Shown here: piece by piece, positions 2,531-63,955 of the stretch
Numbering within the stretch: the stretch's first letter is position 1
Layout: every line of letters begins with the position of its first letter
DNA from: a virus
Direction: 5' to 3' (one strand)
DNA: 64,000 nucleotides
IMG/VR virus record: IMGVR_UViG_3300044692_000034
Location: 1 to 64,000 of that record
Translations under genes and position numbers: made by a program
Notes under the pieces: generated by a model
What the model was told of the DNA's origin: nothing
The model's input: only the letters and a program-made list of their open reading frames with translations
Databases searched by the model: none

Positions 2531-2615
2531 GTGCAGTCCACGCGTCGTGCAGTCCACGCGTCGTGCAGTCCCGCAGTCGCAGTATCGCGCAGTCCTGCCA
2601 TCGCTGCGCAGTCCC
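2531..2615. repeat. Tandem GTGCAGTCCACGCGTC repeat (2.5 copies) plus further GCAGTC units
   Basis: 16-mers at 2531-2546 and 2547-2562, partial 2563-2571, more GCAGT(C) to ~2615. Confidence 0.85.
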
Positions 2616-3264: not shown

Positions 3265-3720
3265 CTACAGGCCCAAGCCGTAGCTGCTCGCGTACATCAT
3301 CTCGCCGTACGCCTCGGTGCTCGCGGCAAGCTCGGCCTCCTCGTCGGTCTGGTCGACCTGCCACTCGGTGTGAACCAGCGGCTCCATCCCATTCCGGGCC
3401 GCGATCCACGTCGCCGTCTCGCGCGCATCGCGGCAGCACGACCCGGCGCACACGTACACGTAGGACTGCGTGTCGCGCATGTAGATGGCGCCGACGTGGC
3501 CTGAGCGGCGTCCGAGAGCGCGGAGTGCGTCACGGGCCGTCTCATGCATCCCGGTGTGCTCGTACTCGACGTGGTCGTGCGTCCAGCCGCATCCGCCGCA
3601 GTGCTCCGCTTGCGGCTTGACGTATCGGCGAGCGTTGTGGAGCATCGACGGCTCAGGGTCGCTTCCGCACGTGATGTGCGGCGTCGCGAACTCGGGCATG
3701 GTGGGCAGGTTGGTGGGCAT
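3265..3720 (-). CDS. Leaderless Cys/His-rich hypothetical protein (MPTNLPT...)
   Basis: Family promoter; CGGC and CAGSCC motifs. Confidence 0.8.
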   Translation of the reverse strand: MPTNLPTMPEFATPHITCGSDPEPSMLHNARRYVKPQAEHCGGCGWTHDHVEYEHTGMHETARDALRALGRRSGHVGAIYMRDTQSYVYVCAGSCCRDARETATWIAARNGMEPLVHTEWQVDQTDEEAELAASTEAYGEMMYASSYGLGL

Positions 3721-12338: not shown

Positions 12339-12688
12339 CTACTCGGTACGTTCACCGAGCGCGGCGCGGAGTTCTTCGGGCGTGCCTAGGACCATCTCGC
12401 CACGCTCAAGGATGTGGTCGCTGTACTTGTTCGCGAGGAGCGTCTGGTCGATGCGCCATCCGTCGAATGCGTCGGTGCCGGCGATGATCTCCGGCTTGAG
12501 CGTGACGTTTCCGATGACCAACGCATCGGCGCGTTTGGTGAACAACCACGGATGCTCGATGCCGGCACACGAGACGCACCCGCGATGATGACGACCGGAT
12601 TGCCTGCGTGGTCCCTCTGACGGCGAGCCCACAACCACGCAGGCGCGGTGATGTACCCCGGACCGAGAAGGTCAGCGATGATGTCCAT
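12339..12688 (-). pseudogene. Probable single gene split by a -1 frameshift near 12580
   Basis: N-half in ORF 12386-12688 (MDIIADLLG...VVIIAG), C-half in ORF 12339-12638 (CVSCAGIEHPW...). Confidence 0.5.
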
Positions 12689-12915
12689 CAGTTGTCGTCT
12701 CGGATGAGCTTGCAGGACAGCACCTCGTCACGGCTCGCGCGGCGCGGCGGCTTCACCATGCGGCCGCCCTCTTTGATGACCTCGTGCTGGCCGTTCGCGT
12801 GGAGCACCACGACGAACCCCGACGACTTGATGGCGGCCTTTGCGAACTCCGGAGCACTCGACGTGCCGTTGCTCTGGAAGGCGACGCGCTGCTTACGCTG
12901 TGCAATGGTGGGCAT
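12688..12915 (-). CDS. Leaderless small basic protein (MPTIAQ...)
   Basis: TTGCAG-17-TAGTGT-7-ATG. Confidence 0.75.
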   Translation of the reverse strand: MPTIAQRKQRVAFQSNGTSSAPEFAKAAIKSSGFVVVLHANGQHEVIKEGGRMVKPPRRASRDEVLSCKLIRDDN

Positions 12916-12966
12916 ACGACAGACACTACGGGCCGCGAAGCATCTCTGCAACGCGGCCCGTTCAGT

Positions 12967-13020
12967 TGGTGGAGCGAGCGCCCGGATTTGACCCCGGCTA
13001 CTGCCACTGTCACTCGCCCC
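12967..13020 (-). ncRNA. tRNA-Ala-like minihelix RNA (acceptor stem + T-arm + ACCA)
   Basis: GGGGCGAGTG...CGCTCGCTCC-ACCA 10-bp stem with G3-U70 and A73; T-loop-like GTCAAAT. Confidence 0.55.
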
Positions 13021-13049
13021 GTGGGATCCCGTGGCTCAGGCGGAAGGTA

Positions 13050-13292
13050 CTACGACCAGCTCGAACGCGCCGAGTGCGCGACGGCGTGCGGCTGCTTCAG
13101 GGCACGCTTGTGCGCGTTCAGCGACCGCGCCGACTCGTTCTTCGAGCCCTTCCCGTACGGTGACTCGTGCGCGCTCGCGCCCGCCGCCATCAGCAGCACG
13201 ACCATCAGCATCACCGCGAGCGCGGCGCCGGCGACAGCCACGGCCTTCCCGCCCCCGATGTGACCCCACTTCACGACGTTGGTGCTCAGCAT
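13050..13292 (-). CDS. Small secreted or membrane protein
   Basis: Hydrophobic AVAVAGAALAVMLMVVLLMAAGASA, basic C-terminus; AAGGA RBS. Confidence 0.55.
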   Translation of the reverse strand: MLSTNVVKWGHIGGGKAVAVAGAALAVMLMVVLLMAAGASAHESPYGKGSKNESARSLNAHKRALKQPHAVAHSARSSWS

Positions 13293-13413
13293 TGCGACCC
13301 TATCCTTTTGGTCCCCGCTCCGGTTTGGCGGGGGCTCACCACTAGTAACGGCACGAGCACCCCACACCTTTAGCGCCTTCAATCGGCGTGGCGCGTGGGC
13401 GCTCATAGAACGC

Positions 13414-13442
13414 GGACGGGCCGCTGATCAGGCGGCCCGTCC
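13414..13442 (-). terminator. Hairpin, probable terminator
   Basis: GGACGGGCCGC/GCGGCCCGTCC 11-bp stem. Confidence 0.5.
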
Positions 13443-13456
13443 AGTTGTCTTCAAGG

Positions 13457-13672
13457 TCCTGCGAGTCTTGTATGAGCGGCTTGCCGAAGCCGCTGTCCGA
13501 TGCCCCAGTCCCGGCTCATGTCACTCAGGTGGACTGGCGCGAGCGAAGTTTGGATGCTGTCGTCTTGTCGTAGCGGCGAAGCGCCGCTAGATGGGGTCTG
13601 GCGCAGGCCGGGGCGGATGTCCGGCACAGGCCGACCCGATGCACCGAGGCACGCGGTCGGCAACCCGCAGGA
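13457..13672 (-). ncRNA. Candidate structured ncRNA (~215 nt)
   Basis: Closing stem 13457-13467/13662-13672 with G-U pairs only on the minus strand, enclosing at least four hairpins. Confidence 0.45.
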
Positions 13673-13754
13673 GCCAAATCAGCAAGGCCACCTTCGGTGG
13701 GAGCCGCAGCTCCATGACGTAGATCGTGAAGATCATGCGTTGGAGTGTGTGAGC

Positions 13755-14087
13755 CTACTCGCGCTCGGCGTCCTGCTCAAGGATGGCCTGTGCCTCGGCG
13801 ATGGCTTCGGCGAGCGCGGCGCTGATGCATGTCGCCAGCTCGATGCTCTTGTCGCTGGCGCTCGCGAGGCTGATGCGCGGCTCGCCGTGCAGCCCGAGTC
13901 CGTCGGTGTCGGGGAGCCACAGCTCGACGGTGTGGTACGGGCGCAGCACGTTGCTGTCGCGCCAGATGTACCCGTCCTTGTAGATCGCGAAGTGGATGAG
14001 CGATCTGCCTTGCGGGACGCGCTTGAGCGACCACCCGTCGGGCAGCTTGTGCGTCGTGATGTCCGTGGTGGGTTCTCGTGTGGGCAT
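13755..14087 (-). CDS. Leaderless hypothetical protein (MPTREPTT...)
   Basis: TTGCGT-17-TAATCT-7-ATG. Confidence 0.8.
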   Translation of the reverse strand: MPTREPTTDITTHKLPDGWSLKRVPQGRSLIHFAIYKDGYIWRDSNVLRPYHTVELWLPDTDGLGLHGEPRISLASASDKSIELATCISAALAEAIAEAQAILEQDAERE

Positions 14088-27961: not shown

Positions 27962-27997
27962 GCTCCGAAGACTACGGGCCGCTAGCGGTCAACGCAA
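27962..27997 (-). promoter_or_regulatory. Family promoter TTGCGT-17-TAGTCT-7-ATG
   Basis: -35 at 27992-27997, -10 at 27969-27974. Confidence 0.85.
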
Positions 27998-28021
27998 GCG
28001 GCCCGTGTCAGGTTGCGGACG

Positions 28022-37858: not shown

Positions 37859-37944
37859 TGCGCGGAGTAGGAGTCGAACCTACGCAGTCAGAGACGGCGG
37901 CTTTACAGGCCGTTGGGCTCAAAACCACATGCCCAGGTCCGCGC
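37859..37944 (-). tRNA. tRNA-Tyr(GTA), atypical
   Basis: Acceptor GCGCGGA/TCCGCGC-A, anticodon loop CTGTAAA, long variable arm, T-arm GTAGG-TTCGACT-CCTAC; no U8. Confidence 0.8.
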
Positions 37945-38036: not shown

Positions 38037-38588
38037 AAAGGAGGAGTGGGGTATCGCCGGTGACTACCGTGCTCCCGAAGAACGGTGCGAACGCGGTCGA
38101 ACAAGCTACGGTCTGAGCGGAGCTTGATCGAACGAATCGGCTTGCGCCGCAGAAGGTGCGGGTCGAGCGGCACGGCCGGGCAGTGTAGCCGAGGAGAGCG
38201 GGCGGCCGGGAGTGCACATCCCTGCTGGCCGCCCTCCTCTCTCTCTGTGGGTCGGTCTCCCGGCGGTCCGTGTCGGGAGACGGTGCACTTACCTCACACT
38301 GCGAAGTTTACGGGGCTCGCGCCCCCGATAGCTTGTCGACGACGCGAGCCCTGATCCTGCGAAGCACCATCTCAGCCGACTTATGTCCGGATGCCTGGCC
38401 TGGCAGTTCAGGGGTTCGAATCCCTTGCCGGAGTGCCCGAGTTCACCGAGACCCCTGGCGCTCAGTCACGTGTCGCGACATCTTGCTAACGAGGAGGCAG
38501 GGCTACTGCTCTTGCAGTCGGGGCCACTGGTGGTGCTTGGCAGGCAAGGTAGCCGCCAGCGGCCCAGCATGCAACTTGAACCGTTCGG

Positions 38589-46707: not shown

Positions 46708-47379
46708 CTACGACAAGTCGGCGACGGCTGGTCCACAGTCGATGCTTGCGCGGCGGTGCATGAGGAGCCGGCCGAGCCAGTTCTCGCCCCACAGCTCTTC
46801 GACGCCACCGTCCTCCTTGTCGCGACGTCCCCAGCACTTGCCCGGCGGCCGGCGAGCCCACCCGCCCGGCGGCTTGGTGACCCAGATGGCTCCCCACCTG
46901 ACGTCGCCCCAGGTGTTGCCCTCGACGAGCATCCTGTACCCGGTCTTGACCAGATTCTCACGCAGTGTGGCGTCCATGAACTTTTGGCACAAGAGCCATG
47001 CCATGCCCCACTGAGCGAAGCCACGATCCCAATCGGGTTGGAGGTCGTCGACGATGCCGCCCTTGGCTGACGGCTTGCCGAGCTTCTTGGACGCCCCGGC
47101 GGAGTCGGCCGCGAGGACCTGGAGAGCGACCTCAAGCTTGCTCGTCTTGAACGCTTGGAACGGTCGCTCGTTGCCGTTGACGATCAGAGTGTTGCCGACG
47201 ACGCGGACGTTGTAGAGCGCGGCCATGTCCTTGACCGCGTCCATGTCGCCTTGCAGCCATGTCACGTTCGAGAGGAAGCCATTCTCGGCACCGATGCGTA
47301 GCGCGATCAGGTGCCCATCGAAGAAGTTGCTCGCCCACGACATGTTGTCGCGGAACTCGTAGATCGGGCCGGCGGCCAT
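46708..47379 (-). CDS. NADAR (YbiA-like) family protein
   Basis: SNF, E..FQAFK, KKLG, QKF...L..TG...LVEGNTWGD..WG, GENWLGRLLM. Confidence 0.9.
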   Translation of the reverse strand: MAAGPIYEFRDNMSWASNFFDGHLIALRIGAENGFLSNVTWLQGDMDAVKDMAALYNVRVVGNTLIVNGNERPFQAFKTSKLEVALQVLAADSAGASKKLGKPSAKGGIVDDLQPDWDRGFAQWGMAWLLCQKFMDATLRENLVKTGYRMLVEGNTWGDVRWGAIWVTKPPGGWARRPPGKCWGRRDKEDGGVEELWGENWLGRLLMHRRASIDCGPAVADLS

Positions 47380-47668
47380 CAGGAGAACTCCACTCGCAGC
47401 GACTCCGGTGTGGTCGCGTACAGCGGCACGAGAACGCCGTAGTCCGCAAGATGCCCGTCCTCGAAGACGACATGCACGTACGTGGCCACCTCCGTTCCGA
47501 TGACCACCTTGCGCCGCTCGATCGAATGCACGTACCCAAAGGCGTCGCCGGTGCCGCTGACGCCAACCACGCGCACCGGCTCGTGGTCGAGCATCCGCTT
47601 CAAGGCCAGCTCCTCGCGCGTGAACGTCTTGGTGTAGGTCACTGAACCCCTTCCGTCGTGTATGTACG

Positions 47669-48100
47669 TCATGCGACTCCCTCGCGGCGCCACGCCGGGA
47701 ACGGAATCTCGTCCTCGTACCGCCACCACCGGTACCTGAACCCACGGAACCCCTTGACGATCGCGAGCCCTGCCGGGTGGCTCGTGCCCGCCGGCCCCGG
47801 GAGCGTGCACGCCACGGCCCCGCCGCGCCGCACAAGCGCGTAACCGCGCCCGTCACCACCAAAGCGCGTGCTGTACGGCTCCACCTCGACAAGCGGTGCG
47901 TAGCCGCGTAGATGCCCGTGCGCAACGACATACACGCGGTCACCGGGGACGATGTCCGGCCTGCGCTTGCCGATGTTGAAGCCGTATTCGAACTCGCCTT
48001 CCCATTCGACTGGCTCCCGGCATGCGTTGTCTGCCGCAAGGTCACCCTCGCACAGCCACTCCGACCACAACTCCTTCGGGACCGTTACGACGACGTCCAC
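47669..48100 (-). CDS. ASCH/PUA-like domain protein
   Basis: PGDRVYVVAHGHLRGYA...VKGFRGFRY. Confidence 0.65.
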   Translation of the reverse strand: MDVVVTVPKELWSEWLCEGDLAADNACREPVEWEGEFEYGFNIGKRRPDIVPGDRVYVVAHGHLRGYAPLVEVEPYSTRFGGDGRGYALVRRGGAVACTLPGPAGTSHPAGLAIVKGFRGFRYRWWRYEDEIPFPAWRREGVA

Positions 48101-51026: not shown

Positions 51027-51413
51027 CTAATCACGGCTCTCCAAGCGTATTTCGATTTGGTCGCAGCGGTCGAGCAGCCCGTCTAGCTCTTGGTTCAGGT
51101 GCGCCGATGCCATCACGATGAGCATCTCGTTCGTTGGTAGCTGCTCCCACGGACCGAACCTATCCTCCAGCGCCGAGCCCAGCACACCGAACGTCAGGTA
51201 TGTCGTCTCGTCCAGATACGGGACGCTCGAAGCGCCGCTCACCCGATTTACATCGACCACGACACCGCCGCTGGTGGTGAGCAGCACCACACCTGTCCCG
51301 AACTCGTAGCTGACCGGAGGCACGGGCGGGCTGGTGATTTGGTGCCGGTGCTGTGCGAGCCACTTCGCCGCTTCGGCGCCACAGACAGAGATCTGAATCT
51401 TCTTCTTTTTCAT
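51027..51413 (-). CDS. Hypothetical protein
   Basis: ATGA coupled to helicase. Confidence 0.6.
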   Translation of the reverse strand: MKKKKIQISVCGAEAAKWLAQHRHQITSPPVPPVSYEFGTGVVLLTTSGGVVVDVNRVSGASSVPYLDETTYLTFGVLGSALEDRFGPWEQLPTNEMLIVMASAHLNQELDGLLDRCDQIEIRLESRD

Positions 51414-53143
51414 CGTGCGCGGTGGCGCTTGAGCGCAGCCTCAGCCATGCGCCGCACGCGGTCGCCAACGTCCACGTTCGATGCTGACAACAGGTCGACG
51501 TCGGGGTTCATGATGGGCTCGGCCTGGCCGCGCTTGATCCCGAGCACCTCGAGGACGGTGGGATCGCTGCCGTATTCGCAGTTGAGGTAGTACGCGACCA
51601 CCGGGTCGTTCATGTCCATGCCGTCGCGGTTGAGTCGGCCGATGAGCTGGTCGTGCATTTTCGGTGACCAGTCAAGCTCACCGAAGACAACTACGTGGCA
51701 GACCTCTTGGAGGCCGTCGAGCCCTGCGCCGGCACGCAACGACATGAGCATCAGGCGGCACTCGGGGTCCTCGCGGAACCGCTTGAAGTTCGCGTCCTTC
51801 TGCTTGACGGACTCCGAGCCGGAGAACATGACCGGCTTATGGTCCTTGAGCTTATCGAGCATGATGTCGTAGACGTCGCGGTGCCACAACGCGAGCACAA
51901 CCTTGTCCTCCTCCTCCAGGAGCAGGTCGGTGAACGCAGCGACGTACGGTGCTTTGGCGATGCCGGTCGCGCGACGCATCTGCCAGTCGAGATCACCGCG
52001 TGCTTCGAAGAGTTCTTCGCGGGTGCCGCTGCCGCTGATGATCATGTTGGCGAGCGCGAGCGTCCCATGCGCCTTCAGCTCGGCGTCGAGGACTGACTCG
52101 TTGCAATCGACGATGTGCGGGACGACGACGACGTCCGGCAGTTCTTTGCCGACCTCCTTGCGCGTCCTGGCGAACAAGAGGTTCTCGGCACGTAGGTGCG
52201 ACCCGAGCGCACGCGGGTCGTTCACGATGATCTTGTCGTTTCCGCCCTCGTGGCCCCACGCGTTCTTGAACTCGGAACGTGTGCCGAGCGCGCCCGGCTT
52301 GATGACCTCGTAGATGTTGTGGACCTCGCCGCCGTAGTTGTAGACCGGCGACGCCGTCGCCCCCACGACGAAGAGTGCCTGCTCCGCGACGATCTGCGCC
52401 GCCGTGTACTTGTCGGACTCATCGCGACGGAGCTGCTGCGCCTCGTCGAACACGACGGTGCGCATGATCCCCTTGAGATGACTCGCCCAGCCCTTGAGCT
52501 TGTGGTACGAGCAGATGAGCACTTCGGGGGCGTGCCCGTAGTAGCCGCGAGTCGTCGTAATGTTGTAGACGGAACCCTTCCGGATGATGTGCGAGTTCAC
52601 CATCGGGAAGAATTTCGTGATCTCACGCTGCCACTGGAGTTGGACGTGGACCTCGCAGACGATGAGCATCGGCAACGCTTCGTAGTCGCGCATCGTCAGG
52701 AGCGTGGTGAGCGTCTTACCGAGCCCCACGTCATCACCGAGGATCAGCCGCTTGACCGCGAGGATCATGTCGCTGCCGGTGACCTGGTAGTTGTACGGCT
52801 CCATGACCGGCCAGTGCCCGTTCGGGCTCAGCGACCCGCCAGCAAGGATCTTCTCGACGAGGTCTTGGCCGTCGTCGTACTCGCGGCTGCGTGCCTTGAG
52901 CACCGCACTGTCCTTTTCGGACATGTTCATGGGCCAGCGCATGAGCGCCCACTCGAGGTTCTTGCTGACCTCGGGCGTCTCCGTGAACACGAGCGCGCCG
53001 GTCTTGTTCTGCTTCACCTGCCGGAAGATGCGTTTCATCATCTCGGTCACGTGCGGTGCGCAATTGACCGTCCACGTACCGTTGTGCTCACGGCCGTCGA
53101 CGAGCCCACCCGGTGTGTACTTGACTGTGCCGTACGTCTTCAT
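51410..53143 (-). CDS. SNF2-family helicase/ATPase
   Basis: DDVGLGKT, FDEAQ, TASPVYN, AGAGLDGLQ, ELDWSP, QLIGRLNRDG. Confidence 0.92.
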   Translation of the reverse strand: MKTYGTVKYTPGGLVDGREHNGTWTVNCAPHVTEMMKRIFRQVKQNKTGALVFTETPEVSKNLEWALMRWPMNMSEKDSAVLKARSREYDDGQDLVEKILAGGSLSPNGHWPVMEPYNYQVTGSDMILAVKRLILGDDVGLGKTLTTLLTMRDYEALPMLIVCEVHVQLQWQREITKFFPMVNSHIIRKGSVYNITTTRGYYGHAPEVLICSYHKLKGWASHLKGIMRTVVFDEAQQLRRDESDKYTAAQIVAEQALFVVGATASPVYNYGGEVHNIYEVIKPGALGTRSEFKNAWGHEGGNDKIIVNDPRALGSHLRAENLLFARTRKEVGKELPDVVVVPHIVDCNESVLDAELKAHGTLALANMIISGSGTREELFEARGDLDWQMRRATGIAKAPYVAAFTDLLLEEEDKVVLALWHRDVYDIMLDKLKDHKPVMFSGSESVKQKDANFKRFREDPECRLMLMSLRAGAGLDGLQEVCHVVVFGELDWSPKMHDQLIGRLNRDGMDMNDPVVAYYLNCEYGSDPTVLEVLGIKRGQAEPIMNPDVDLLSASNVDVGDRVRRMAEAALKRHRAR

Positions 53144-57049: not shown

Positions 57050-57838
57050 CTACAGCCTGTCCGCCCACGCCTGCCAGACGACCTTCTGGCACAACCGCGA
57101 CGCCTCGGTTGTGTCGACGCGCTCCGGCCATGACTTGGCAGCGATGATCTCCCGCTCCAGAGCGCGAGCCATGTCGAGCGTTCCTTCCAGCTCTTCGGTG
57201 ACCTGGCCGAGAGTCCACTGGCCGCGCTTGATCGCGATGAGCATGTCCGCGTCGTTGCTGGTGCGGTTGACGATGAGCTTCCATGTCTGGAGCAGGTCGA
57301 CGAGCATGTGCGCCAACCGGATCGCATGCGACGCGTTCTTGACGTCGTAACCGAACTCCTCGGCGAGAGCGCGTCGGCGTTCGCCCATGTACGCCTGGTC
57401 GGTCGGCTTGCTCTTCATCTTCGAGACCTGGCCGGCGATGTACCCCATGAACGCCGTGATCGTCTGCTGTGTCATCGTGAACATGCCACGCGACTGGATG
57501 AGCAAGCGCGCCGGCTCGCTCAGAACATCGTAATCGTCGAGCCACAGCATCGTGAGCACGTTCGGGTTGCCCTTGCACAGCAGCCGCACGAACTTCACGA
57601 CATCGTAGATGACGACATCCCATGGGCCGTTCATGACGTTCTTGGTGCCCTGCGAATGCCCGTACGTCTCCAACCCGAAGTAATAGCCGGGCGGCAGCAC
57701 AACGACATCCATCATGTCGATGTCGTCGGTGCCGAAGCGGTCATCGGCCTCCGGCGGGATCGTGGTGCCGTGCGCCTGGCTACCCCGGTATCCCGAGAGG
57801 ATCGCCCACTCAGACGGCTCGTACACGAACTCGGTCAT
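57050..57838 (-). CDS. Pol-beta-superfamily nucleotidyltransferase (phage YcgL/RlaP-like)
   Basis: GSQAHG...DIDMMD, KGNPN, GYDVKNASHAIRL, AIKRG. Confidence 0.88.
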   Translation of the reverse strand: MTEFVYEPSEWAILSGYRGSQAHGTTIPPEADDRFGTDDIDMMDVVVLPPGYYFGLETYGHSQGTKNVMNGPWDVVIYDVVKFVRLLCKGNPNVLTMLWLDDYDVLSEPARLLIQSRGMFTMTQQTITAFMGYIAGQVSKMKSKPTDQAYMGERRRALAEEFGYDVKNASHAIRLAHMLVDLLQTWKLIVNRTSNDADMLIAIKRGQWTLGQVTEELEGTLDMARALEREIIAAKSWPERVDTTEASRLCQKVVWQAWADRL

Positions 57839-57845
57839 GCGTCTC

Positions 57846-58379
57846 CTAGAACGGCACGTGCTGCCGGTTGTGGTCGTTGATCGCATGGCAGGCGCACGCG
57901 CACGGCAACGACCCCATGGGGCCACGCTTCTTGAGGCAATGCTCGTGGTCGCCGCGCACGCAGTCCATCGAATGCATGTCGCGGCCGAGCTGTAGGCGGC
58001 CATGCTGCGGCCCCGGCACCCCACAGTTCGGGCACACATCAACCCAGCCGGCGACCTGTACACGAGGCTGGCACTCGCAGAACCACGGGCCGAGAGTCGG
58101 CGGCTCGTACGGCGGCGTCGTCTCCTCCGCGTACGGCTTCCACCTGTCGTCTCCCGGAGCCGTCTGGATGCGTGTGCCCGGGTGGCTCTGTGTCGCCGGC
58201 ACCGGCTTGCTCCGCATCGTGACCGCGTTGAACGTGAGCTGGTCCCACAGCCGCGTGAACCACTCGACGTCGACGACGAGCGCAGCCGCCTCGGCGGAGT
58301 CTCCCTCGAACCAGTAGACCGCGTTCTCGGTGCTCGCGGCGAGCACCGACCCCGGTGTGCGCTCCTCGTTGTCGCTCAC
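57846..58379 (-). CDS. Hypothetical protein with Cys/His-rich C-terminus
   Basis: CPNC, CACACH. Confidence 0.6.
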   Translation of the reverse strand: MSDNEERTPGSVLAASTENAVYWFEGDSAEAAALVVDVEWFTRLWDQLTFNAVTMRSKPVPATQSHPGTRIQTAPGDDRWKPYAEETTPPYEPPTLGPWFCECQPRVQVAGWVDVCPNCGVPGPQHGRLQLGRDMHSMDCVRGDHEHCLKKRGPMGSLPCACACHAINDHNRQHVPF

Positions 58380-62037: not shown

Positions 62038-63792
62038 CTACGAGTTCACGAGGACGAACTCGGCCATGACGCCGGGCGCCGAGGCGTCGAGCCCGACCAT
62101 GTCGAGCGAGTGCGGGTCCCGGGGGCCGCAGATGGACGACCGACCGGCGGTCATCGAGTGAACGATGAGCTTGGCGTTGATGCCCATCTGCTTGCGGTAC
62201 TGGTTCAGCGCCTCGGACGGGTGGATGACGCCGCTCCACGTCTCATTGTCCGTGTACACGACGAACGCGTCGTACTCGCGGCGCTGCTCCAGCGCCCATA
62301 GCATCGGCAGTGCGCAGTCGGTGCCACCGAAGTTGAGGTCGTTGACGGAGGAGCAGACGTCGGTGATCCGCTGGCGCGGGCTCACGTTGAGCTGCGTTAG
62401 GACGGCAGCCGGCGCTGTCCTGTCAGCGTTCGCGATCAGGCCACGCCCGGCCGTGCCGTCGCTGAACGCGACGACGTCGTAGGGGTTGTCGAGCATGAGT
62501 GGCAGACTCATCGCGACGCTTGCCTCTCGTGCCGTGGTGTTCGGCAGGCCGGTGCACATGTTGCGGTTCATTGACTGCGAGACGTCGTACGCGATCAGCA
62601 ACCGCCCCATGGAGACGACGTTGTCGAACGCGAGGTAGTACGCCTCGTCAAGCGCGTCGATGACTCGTGACACCGGGGTCCACGTGCCGGTGCCCTGCTC
62701 GCTGCGCCCGTGCGCGTACGTCCGCGCCGCGACGAACAGCTTCATTGGGTGCACGAGCGAGCGACGGATGTGCTCCGGATTCGAGAGCTGCTGCACGACG
62801 AGGTCGGTCGCGGAGGAGACGCCGGTGAGCAGCGTCTTGCCGTTCTTGTCCGGGCGACTCATGCGCGGCAGGTTCCGGATAAGCGCGGTCATAGGCATGC
62901 CGGCCTTGAGCAGCGCGAACCACACATCGGACGTCATGTGCTCGGCTGGGATCGCCTCGTGCGGCACCGCCCGGCCGTATGCCGCGATCGTCGCGCACAC
63001 ATCCTGCGGGCTCGTCGCCTTCACCAGCTCCTCGTACGCCACGACCGGCCCGATGAACGCCGCGTACCGCTCGGGGTCGTGGTCGTTCAGGATGTCGTTG
63101 TACTCCGCCTTCTCGCGATGCGTCGCCCAGTCGATGAGCGTGCGGTGCTGCCAGCTCGCCATCGCCGTGCCCTGCTCATGCAGGGGCAGGCCCCCGAGGT
63201 AGCCTCCCTCGACGGCGTACGGGTGCGCCTGCCGCATGACGTCACGGTGCGTCCACCCGTACCGCTGCCGGTACTTGACCATCTGGTACGCGACGTCTTC
63301 GGCCGACTTGTTCAGGTACCAGCGGGTGATGGCCTTGCGGAACCCGCGTCCCCAGCCGCGCATGTCCTCGCAGAAGGACAGGAACATGAACAGGGTGCTC
63401 GCGGTGCGGCACACGACGGGGATCGCAGCGAGGCCGGCCTCGCGGACGTCCTGGCGCTCGTGCGAGCAGAGCACGGCGAGCGCGTAGATGCCCGGGTCCT
63501 GCTTCGGGGCGCGGCCCGCCACGCTCACGTTCACGACCTCGGCAACGGTGCGGACGGCGTCCTTCTCGATGCACCGCAGCAGCGCGTCGACGTTGTCGAG
63601 CGTGAGCTTGTCCTGCCCGGCGTAGTACGTGCCGCCTTCGCTGCCGATGACGAGCCACCGGCGCAGACGCGCCCAATCGCCCGCCTGCCATACGTACCCG
63701 CCCGCCGGATTCTTGACCTGGCCCGAACCCGGAAGCGGCCGCGACTGCGGCGTCTTCACCGCACGTCTGGTGCCTCTCTTCAGGTAGCTCAT
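62038..63792 (-). CDS. rsr: Ro60/Rsr TROVE + vWA RNA-binding protein
   Basis: NPAGGY, GSEGGTYY, GRAPK, GWGRGFR, KYRQRYGWTHRD, MPMTALIRNL, MIDAS DVSQSM, GGTDCALPM, YTDNETW; GAGGAG RBS. Confidence 0.95.
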   Translation of the reverse strand: MSYLKRGTRRAVKTPQSRPLPGSGQVKNPAGGYVWQAGDWARLRRWLVIGSEGGTYYAGQDKLTLDNVDALLRCIEKDAVRTVAEVVNVSVAGRAPKQDPGIYALAVLCSHERQDVREAGLAAIPVVCRTASTLFMFLSFCEDMRGWGRGFRKAITRWYLNKSAEDVAYQMVKYRQRYGWTHRDVMRQAHPYAVEGGYLGGLPLHEQGTAMASWQHRTLIDWATHREKAEYNDILNDHDPERYAAFIGPVVAYEELVKATSPQDVCATIAAYGRAVPHEAIPAEHMTSDVWFALLKAGMPMTALIRNLPRMSRPDKNGKTLLTGVSSATDLVVQQLSNPEHIRRSLVHPMKLFVAARTYAHGRSEQGTGTWTPVSRVIDALDEAYYLAFDNVVSMGRLLIAYDVSQSMNRNMCTGLPNTTAREASVAMSLPLMLDNPYDVVAFSDGTAGRGLIANADRTAPAAVLTQLNVSPRQRITDVCSSVNDLNFGGTDCALPMLWALEQRREYDAFVVYTDNETWSGVIHPSEALNQYRKQMGINAKLIVHSMTAGRSSICGPRDPHSLDMVGLDASAPGVMAEFVLVNS

Positions 63793-63824
63793 CAGGTCAC
63801 AACTCCTCTCCGGTGAAGTTAGGG

Positions 63825-63955
63825 CGTCGCACGGGCATGTTGCGTGAACCTTGTCCGCCGGCAACGCTCACGCGTCCCGACCTTAGATACCGCTCTATGA
63901 GCGACGTATCAGGGTTTCAACCTGAGATAACAGACTCACAGCGGCCCGTACGACG
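63825..63955 (-). ncRNA. Candidate Y RNA (YrlA-like, tRNA-mimic domain)
   Basis: Terminal stem GTCGTACGGGC/GCCCGTGCGAC; T-arm TCAGG-TTGAAAC-CCTGA followed by a closed hairpin; directly upstream of rsr. Confidence 0.75.

What the first reader, a model, noticed from the sequence alone, without database searches (positions are those of the whole stretch)
12967..13020. 54-nt tRNA-Ala-like minihelix with encoded CCA and no D or anticodon arms
Seen (minus strand): GGGGCGAGTG-ACAGTGGCAGTAG-CCGGG-GTCAAAT-CCGGG-CGCTCGCTCC-ACCA. It has a 10-bp acceptor-like helix with G1-C, G2-C and G3-U pairs, discriminator A, CCA, and an imperfect T-arm. It lies between a gene end and a family promoter. Established: G3-U70 and A73 are the AlaRS identity elements, and minihelices can be alanylated. 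Inference: an aminoacylatable mini-RNA, which could be a decoy for tRNA-targeting defences, an Ala donor for non-ribosomal transfer, or a Ro60/nucleotidyltransferase substrate. A plain attP remnant would not be expected to retain the matching 5' strand.
Basis: partly seen in the sequence, partly recalled or inferred. Interest (0 to 1): 0.72.

Follow-up and report, generated by a model that had tools for sequence, protein, structure and literature searches.

The report
Alanine-tRNA-like hairpin in phage spacer
A 54-base hairpin in an uncultured soil phage has ends that look like the tip of an alanine tRNA, but it fails every tRNA test I could run and is most likely an ordinary stem-loop behind a small gene.

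Summary
The sequence is exactly as described. On the minus strand, 13020..12967 forms a 10-bp helix with G1-C, G2-C, G3-U and G4-C pairs, followed by ACCA. It lies in a 134-nt non-coding spacer.

The 'T-arm' is weak. It has a central G-G mismatch and G where T54 should be, and it sits 3 bp away from the canonical position. The minimum-energy fold replaces it with a different pairing.

Neither Rfam nor ARAGORN gives a tRNA or tmRNA call. A tRNA-Ala model I built from 27 Actinomycetota genes scores it 9.1 bits (E about 4 per window) and aligns only the acceptor stem. The tag-less tmRNA of mycobacteriophage DS6A, used as a positive control, scores 34.7 bits.

The fold is unremarkable (z = -1.9). 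The two hairpins that bracket the upstream gene are much stronger (z = -5.3 and -5.7).

The element has no promoter of its own. It lies in the 3' untranslated part of a small secreted-peptide gene, 6 nt before a strong hairpin of the type seen near tRNA-Met.

I found no relatives, RNA reads or sequence variants, so conservation and expression remain untested.

Earlier notes of this scan describe similar alanine-type mini-RNAs in other phages. A real mimic therefore stays possible, at about 25%.

The parts
12967..13020 (-). The flagged 54-nt hairpin. 5' strand 13020-13011, 3' strand 12980-12971, single-stranded ACCA 12970-12967.
   Evidence: Sequence. Fold (dG -24.1, z -1.9). Pair probabilities.
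12981..12997 (-). It has a G-G mismatch, and the minimum-energy fold uses a 3-nt loop instead.
   Evidence: The tRNA-Ala model skips it.
13018..13034 (-). Direct repeat CCACGGG-ATC-CCACGGG. It overlaps the first three G of the helix.
   Evidence: Read directly. Not followed up.
13050..13292 (-). Upstream gene P0001/P0123 (80 aa from ATG 13292): a signal peptide followed by a conserved short mature peptide. The element lies in its 3' untranslated region.
   Evidence: Third-position GC, translation, and a 71% identical relative, P0124.
12928..12961 (-). Strong hairpin 6 nt after ACCA. It has a CGGGCCGCG/CGCGGCCCG stem and a GAGA loop, and carries the next promoter: -35 TTGCAG at 12951-12946, -10 TAGTGT at 12928-12923.
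   Evidence: dG -28.5, z -5.7. Near copy of the hairpin about 80 nt after tRNA-Met.
13414..13442 (-). Matching strong hairpin just upstream of P0001. Together with the hairpin at 12928-12961 it brackets the gene and the element.
   Evidence: dG -27.3, z -5.3. The leading context CAACTGGACGGGCCGC is shared.
12688..12915 (-). Downstream gene P0002 (75 aa), which starts without a leader at the family motif ATGCCCACC.
   Evidence: It has no relatives among 5.8 billion proteins.

Best explanation
The element is an ordinary RNA stem-loop in the 3' untranslated region of a small secreted-peptide gene (P0001). It lies between that gene's stop codon and a strong terminator-type hairpin that also carries the next promoter.

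Its resemblance to an alanine tRNA is limited to the acceptor helix and the ACCA tail. Most likely this arose by chance, helped by the repeated sequence context that supplies the final CA.

If it does anything, the inferred role is to structure or stabilise the 3' end of the P0001 transcript. It is probably not released, trimmed and charged as a mini-tRNA.
For: Shown:
- The spacer is non-coding and the element is on the transcribed strand.
- It has no promoter of its own.
- The fold is not exceptional (z -1.9), while the two bracketing hairpins are (z -5.3 and -5.7).
- The 3' hairpin is a near copy of the one about 80 nt downstream of the true tRNA-Met, so the element is not itself the terminator but sits just before one.
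- tRNA, tmRNA, mt-tmRNA and all other Rfam models give nothing at E <= 10, even on 81 nt alone. ARAGORN gives nothing.
- An independent tRNA-Ala model gives 9.1 bits, E 3.8 per window, rank 15 of 31 noise hits, and aligns only the acceptor stem.
- The DS6A tag-less tmRNA, used as a positive control, scores 34.7 bits.
- The acceptor branch is 15 bp instead of 12, there is no T54, and the T-stem has a mismatch.
- The CA of ACCA is part of a repeated unit.
- A 'D-arm' can be read just as well on the opposite strand, which shows how easily this hairpin reads as tRNA parts.

Inferred: the stabilising role.
Against: - The full alanine identity set together with CCA is rare by chance: 0.065 expected per genome for a helix of at least 10 bp. 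It is rarer still in a spacer on the sense strand.
- Both imperfect pairs are G-U only on the transcribed strand.
- The phage's true tRNA-Met does not encode CCA, so an encoded ACCA stands out.
- The layout of a tRNA-like end followed by a hairpin of the tRNA-Met type resembles a tRNA gene unit.
- Most family promoters follow the previous stop codon by 33-56 nt. Here the gap is 134 nt, so about 85 nt are extra.
- Earlier notes of this scan report conserved alanine-type mini-RNAs in other phages.
Confidence: 0.5

Rival explanations
1. The element is a genuine alanine-type tRNA mimic without an anticodon, built like a microhelix. It is transcribed with P0001, cut at G1 by RNase P and trimmed back to CCA. 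It is then charged by AlaRS, or it acts as a decoy or titrant for proteins that bind the acceptor end, such as AlaRS, toxins that target the CCA end, or tmRNA partners.
For: - The identity set G1-C72, G2-C71, G3-U70, G4-C69, A73, CCA is complete.
- The helix is stable in the transcript context and leaves ACCA single-stranded.
- The element is on the sense strand in a spacer, and a strong hairpin follows it.
- The same acceptor stem, GGGGCGA/TCGCTCC plus ACCA, occurs in real tRNA-Ala genes of other phyla.
- Mycobacteriophage DS6A carries a tag-less tmRNA (PMC4131195).
- The phage carries Ro60, a YrlA-like RNA and an RlaP enzyme.
- The scan has noted similar units elsewhere (these are unchecked leads).
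Against: - It has no promoter of its own.
- The branch is 15 bp with a 13-nt bulge, and there is no canonical T-loop.
- No covariance model recognises anything beyond the acceptor stem.
- It is not in a tRNA cluster.
- The phage encodes no CCA-adding enzyme or FemAB-type transferase.
- There are no relatives and no RNA data.
Confidence: 0.25
2. The element is a decayed remnant of a tRNA-Ala-like or tmRNA-head gene that lost its middle part and now has no function of its own.
For: - The acceptor stem is identical to real tRNA-Ala stems.
- The loop AGTGGCA fits the D-loop pattern and GTCAAAT is one letter away from TTCAAAT.
- The phage carries other weak tRNA-like pieces, at 135365-135436 and 38405-38426.
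- The neighbouring 13300-13750 stretch also has poor coding signal.
Against: - It requires a 3-nt insertion between the T-stem and the acceptor stem, plus loss of U8, A9 and T54, while all 10 helix pairs stay intact.
- No actinobacterial tRNA-Ala with this acceptor stem was found in the 401 genomes searched.
- There is no paralogue in the phage.
Confidence: 0.15
3. The element is a DNA-level site, for example a binding site for a regulator at the imperfect inverted repeat or at the CCACGGG direct repeat.
For: The direct repeat CCACGGG-ATC-CCACGGG abuts the helix, and the site lies next to a promoter.
Against: Two of the ten pairs are G-U, which are mismatches in DNA. The arms are 30 nt apart. 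The motif does not recur elsewhere in the genome.
Confidence: 0.05

Closest known systems
Synthetic minihelix-Ala and microhelix-Ala substrates of alanyl-tRNA synthetase (as described in PMC11392972 and PMC9976931)
   Same: It has a helix with G3-U70, G1-C72, G2-C71 and A73 and a single-stranded CCA, and it has no anticodon.
   Different: Minihelix-Ala is a 12-bp coaxial stack of a 7-bp acceptor stem on a 5-bp T-stem with a TPsiC loop. Here a 10-bp helix closes a 30-nt, weakly folded interior. The ends are buried in a longer transcript, and charging was not tested.
Tag-less ('TLD only') tmRNA of Mycobacterium phage DS6A (PMC4131195; JN698994 28478-28560)
   Same: It is phage-encoded, has an alanine-type acceptor stem starting GGGGC and ending CTCCA, and has no anticodon arm and no tag.
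   Different: DS6A keeps the canonical T-arm directly on a 7-bp acceptor stem, the D-loop analogue and the P2 helix, and it scores 34.7 bits with the Rfam tmRNA model. This element scores nothing.
YrlA Y RNA (Rfam RF02553; PMC4201824)
   Same: It is a tRNA-like RNA without an anticodon arm in a phage that encodes Ro60. In M. smegmatis, YrlA is cut by RNase P and receives CCA.
   Different: YrlA lies within 4 kb of Ro60 on the same strand and has true D- and T-arms. This phage already has such an RNA at 64056-64124 (31.1 bits). The element is about 51 kb away and gives no YrlA match.
Structured 3' untranslated regions and terminator-proximal stem-loops of phage gene cassettes
   Same: It lies between a stop codon and a strong hairpin, on the sense strand, has no promoter of its own, and belongs to a cassette bracketed by two like hairpins.
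   Different: The phage's clear terminators are perfect 9-14 bp stems with small loops. This helix closes a 30-nt interior and carries the alanine letters.

Membership tests
tRNA (Rfam RF00005; tRNA-Ala) | Cloverleaf recognised by a covariance model | tested here: not met
   There is no hit at E <= 10 and ARAGORN gives nothing. My own tRNA-Ala model gives 9.1 bits, E 3.8 per window, and aligns only the acceptor stem.
tRNA (Rfam RF00005; tRNA-Ala) | 12-bp acceptor/T branch, U8, T54-A58 and G53-C61 | tested here: not met
   The branch is 10+5 bp with 3 extra pairs, position 8 is G, position 54 is G, and the T-stem has a G-G mismatch. G53-C61 is present.
AlaRS minihelix/microhelix substrate | G3-U70 in the acceptor helix with A73 and 3' CCA | tested here: met
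   G1-C, G2-C, G3-U, G4-C and ACCA are read directly from the sequence. The helix probability is 0.8-1.0.
AlaRS minihelix/microhelix substrate | A free 5' end at G1 and a free 3'-OH at A76 (an RNA of its own), and charging with alanine | not testable with these tools
   No RNA runs hold the region. The element has no promoter of its own, and 6 nt plus a hairpin follow the CCA.
TLD-only tmRNA (DS6A type) | Match to the tmRNA model across the acceptor stem, D-loop analogue and T-arm | tested here: not met
   There is no match. The DS6A control scores 34.7 bits, E 1e-12.
YrlA Y RNA | Model match, and a position within a few kb of Ro60 on the same strand | tested here: not met
   The only YrlA match in the genome is at 64056-64124, beside Ro60. 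There is none at the element.
Intrinsic terminator | A compact GC-rich stem with a small loop, then a U-rich tail | tested here: not met
   The interior is 30 nt and the tail is ACCAACUGAA. The scan makes no call here. The true terminator-type hairpin is the next one, at 12961-12928.
attP or tRNA-fragment remnant | Only the 3' part of a host tRNA, next to an integrase | tested here: not met
   Both strands of the stem are present. No tyrosine integrase was found in the genome; serine integrases were not searched for. No matching tRNA-Ala was found in the 401 Actinomycetota genomes searched.

The most novel reading that the evidence does not exclude
The hairpin is a working alanine 'microhelix' that consists of an acceptor end only. 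It rides in the 3' end of a small secreted-peptide mRNA and is freed by RNase P and 3' trimming. It is then charged by AlaRS, or it soaks up factors that attack or bind tRNA CCA ends. That would make it a structurally new, T-arm-poor member of the emerging class of phage alanine-type tRNA mimics without an anticodon.
Probability: 0.22. Interest if true: 0.7.

Novelty: already known. Interest (0 to 1): 0.3.

Why it matters
If the element were a real chargeable mini-RNA, it would add a new build to the small set of natural RNAs that carry only the alanine acceptor end, and it would hint at phage interference with tRNA-end biology. As the evidence stands, it is a single unconserved sequence with poor tRNA geometry. 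Its main value is as a caution: an alanine-like stem followed by CCA can arise in a GC-rich spacer. The helix alone is not enough to call a mimic; a canonical T-arm, an own promoter or conservation in relatives is also needed.

Tried and rejected
- **Relatives:**
  - Megablast and blastn of the region against 50,697 phage records found nothing.
  - The 66-nt query alone gave only 18-nt chance hits at E = 6.
  - The exact 54-mer and two degenerate patterns found nothing in IMG/VR, and two patterns found nothing in metagenome contigs.
  - The flanking proteins found nothing in IMG/VR.
  - P0002 has no relatives among 5.8 billion proteins, and ten neighbouring proteins match no PHROG family.
  - The closest terminase relative is only 61% identical and sits on short contigs.
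- **P0001 relatives:** P0124 was not found in the 401 Actinomycetota genomes searched.
- **Sequencing runs:** no RNA holder was listed. Only the source soil metagenome covers the element, and it shows no variants.
- **Host tRNA origin:** the genome-contig scan found real tRNA-Ala genes with this acceptor stem only outside Actinomycetota. In a sample of 401 Actinomycetota genomes the acceptor pattern gave only chance hits, no more than the control pattern. That sample includes the unpublished genomes G002, G337 and G149, whose hits were chance hits too. The G002 locus was left out of alignment A1.
- **Rejected readings:**
  - A coding frame through the element has stops.
  - A promoter of its own was not found.
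  - A paralogue elsewhere in the phage was not found.
  - The alternative D-arm fold is much weaker, at -11.2 kcal/mol.
  - The plus-strand tRNA-like reading is a by-product of GCTCCACCA being nearly the reverse complement of a D-arm.

Full report
**What the window is.** The window is the first 64 kb of a 141,737-bp virus record from a soil metagenome. It has 65% GC and is estimated to be 96% complete. Its left arm, 2-36 kb on the minus strand, is a run of small genes. About 22 of them start at the same module: TGAACG, then TTGCnn, 17-18 nt, TAGTCT, 6-7 nt, then ATGCCCACC. This is a promoter that fires straight onto the start codon.

**The observation.** On the minus strand, 13020..12967 forms a 10-bp helix, GGGGCGAGUG/CGCUCGCUCC, with G3-U and U9-G wobbles. 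It is followed by ACCA. Third-position GC shows coding down to the stop codon at 13050 and again from the ATG at 12915. The 134 nt between them have no frame, and the frame that ends at the local TGA contains stops. The helix is robust, with pair probability 0.8-1.0 both alone and in the likely transcript.

**The inner part is weak.** The proposed T-arm has a G-G mismatch in the middle of its stem and G at position 54. It sits on a 10-bp helix rather than a 7-bp one. The minimum-energy fold closes a 3-nt loop instead, and the version with a 7-nt loop costs 3 kcal/mol more. The whole element has z = -1.9 against shuffles.

**Chance.**
- In dinucleotide shuffles of the genome, a GGG...TCC-ACCA helix of at least 7 bp is expected 0.57 times, and one of at least 10 bp 0.065 times.
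- Generic helices of at least 10 bp followed by NCCA occur 6 times against 2.9 expected.
- A T-arm-like inner hairpin, by a definition I made after seeing the sequence, has probability 6.5e-4 in random sequence. A D-loop-like motif has probability 0.02.

Taken at face value these numbers argue against pure chance. Three things weaken them:
- The definitions were made after the fact.
- The last CA of ACCA belongs to a unit, CAACTGRACGGGCCGC, that also precedes the other hairpin flanking the upstream gene.
- The opposite strand reads as a 14-of-16 match to the common D-arm, simply because GCTCCACCA is nearly the reverse complement of TGGTAGAGC. This hairpin is easy to read as tRNA parts.

**Objective tRNA tests.**
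- Rfam finds no tRNA, tmRNA, mt-tmRNA, YrlA or other family at E <= 10, in a 1-kb search, in an 81-nt search or genome-wide.
- ARAGORN finds only tRNA-Tyr, tRNA-Ser and tRNA-Met.
- I built a covariance model from 27 tRNA-Ala genes of Actinomycetota, chosen without reference to the element. It scores the element 9.1 bits, E 3.8 for the window, fifteenth among 31 noise-level hits. It aligns only the seven acceptor pairs and A73 and skips the 36 inner bases.
- As a positive control, the 83-nt tag-less tmRNA of mycobacteriophage DS6A (PMC4131195) scores 34.7 bits, E 1e-12, with the Rfam tmRNA model.

So the element is not a member of the tRNA family or the TLD-only tmRNA family. Only its acceptor end resembles them.

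**Context.** Most family promoters follow the previous stop codon by 33-56 nt. Here the gap is 134 nt. The upstream gene P0001 (80 aa from ATG 13292) encodes a signal peptide and a short mature peptide, which is conserved in a 71% identical relative.

The gene and the element are bracketed by two strong hairpins with the same CGGGCCGC/GCGGCCCG stem. One spans 13442-13414 and the other 12961-12928 (z -5.3 and -5.7). The second begins 6 nt after ACCA and has a GAGA loop. It carries the -35 element of the next promoter in its internal loop. It is a near copy of the hairpin about 80 nt after the true tRNA-Met gene.

No promoter lies directly before the element. It would therefore be made as the tail of the P0001 message. 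It is not the terminator itself, but it sits just before one.

**Relatives and expression.** I found nothing in phage records, IMG/VR or metagenome contigs. P0002 has no relatives at all, and the nearest terminase is 61% identical. Only the source metagenome covers the element. It shows no variants, and no RNA runs were listed.

**Origin.** Real tRNA-Ala genes with the acceptor stem GGGGCGA/TCGCTCC, an encoded CCA and a TTCAAAT loop exist in several phyla. None was found in the 401 Actinomycetota genomes searched. That sample includes three unpublished genomes, G002, G337 and G149, and none of the hits was a tRNA. The phage's own tRNA-Met does not encode CCA. No tyrosine integrase, CCA-adding enzyme or FemAB transferase was found.

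**Reading.** I judge the most likely explanation (0.5) to be an ordinary stem-loop in the 3' untranslated region whose alanine-like ends are coincidental. Any role would be in shaping or stabilising the 3' end of the message; that role is inferred, not shown.

A true alanine-type mimic remains possible (0.25). The identity set is complete, the strand and position are right, and both imperfect pairs are G-U on the sense strand. Earlier notes of this scan also describe conserved units of this kind in other phages (those notes are unchecked leads). Of them I checked only the DS6A one.

A decayed tRNA-like relic (0.15) and a DNA-level site (0.05) are the remaining options.

**Novelty.** Stem-loops of this kind are known. 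Alanine-type mini-RNAs in phages have a published precedent (DS6A), and the scan has seen them before on other DNA. This copy adds no evidence of function.

Noticed in passing
window 2300-36200, minus strand (for example ATG at 3720, 6029, 8992, 12915, 27961): About 22 copies of a promoter-and-start module: TGAACG, 7 nt, TTGCnn, 17-18 nt, TAGTCT, 6-7 nt, ATGCCCACC. It gives leaderless messages whose products all begin MPT.
   Followed up: partly
genome 64056-64124 (-), just beyond the window end; Ro60 gene at window 62038-63864 (-): A YrlA-like tRNA-mimic RNA (Rfam RF02553, 31.1 bits, below the 69-bit cut-off) lies directly upstream of a Ro60 gene with TROVE and vWA domains. This matches the arrangement described for 22 phages in PMC4201824.
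   Followed up: partly
window 12928-12961, 13414-13442, 27976-28004, 1907-1941; genome 102094-102113: A family of strong hairpins shares the stem CGGGCCGC/GCGGCCCG. Two of them overlap promoters, and one lies about 80 nt after tRNA-Met.
   Followed up: partly
window 13300-13750 (-): About 450 nt with poor coding signal lie between the gene ending at 13755 and P0001. The stretch holds a 49-codon ORF and several hairpins.
   Followed up: no
window 2531-2571: A perfect 16-nt tandem repeat, GTGCAGTCCACGCGTC, occurs 2.6 times in a 313-nt spacer that also holds a clean terminator.
   Followed up: no
genome 102191-102264 (-), 135365-135436 (+); window 37859-37934 (-), 38405-38426 (+): There is one good tRNA-Met (64.9 bits, no CCA encoded) and several weak tRNA-like pieces: 20.9 bits, 16.4 bits, and a lone T-arm GGGGTTCGAATCCC.
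   Followed up: no
window 57050-58063 (-), 46708-48045 (-), 51410-53143 (-): An RlaP-type nucleotidyltransferase, a NADAR-domain protein and an SNF2 helicase lie near Ro60.
   Followed up: no
window 13053-13292 (-): P0001 is a small secreted peptide. Its mature part, HESPYGKGSKNESARSL...RSSWS, is conserved in the relatives P0124 and P0125 from other assemblies, while the signal peptide differs.
   Followed up: partly
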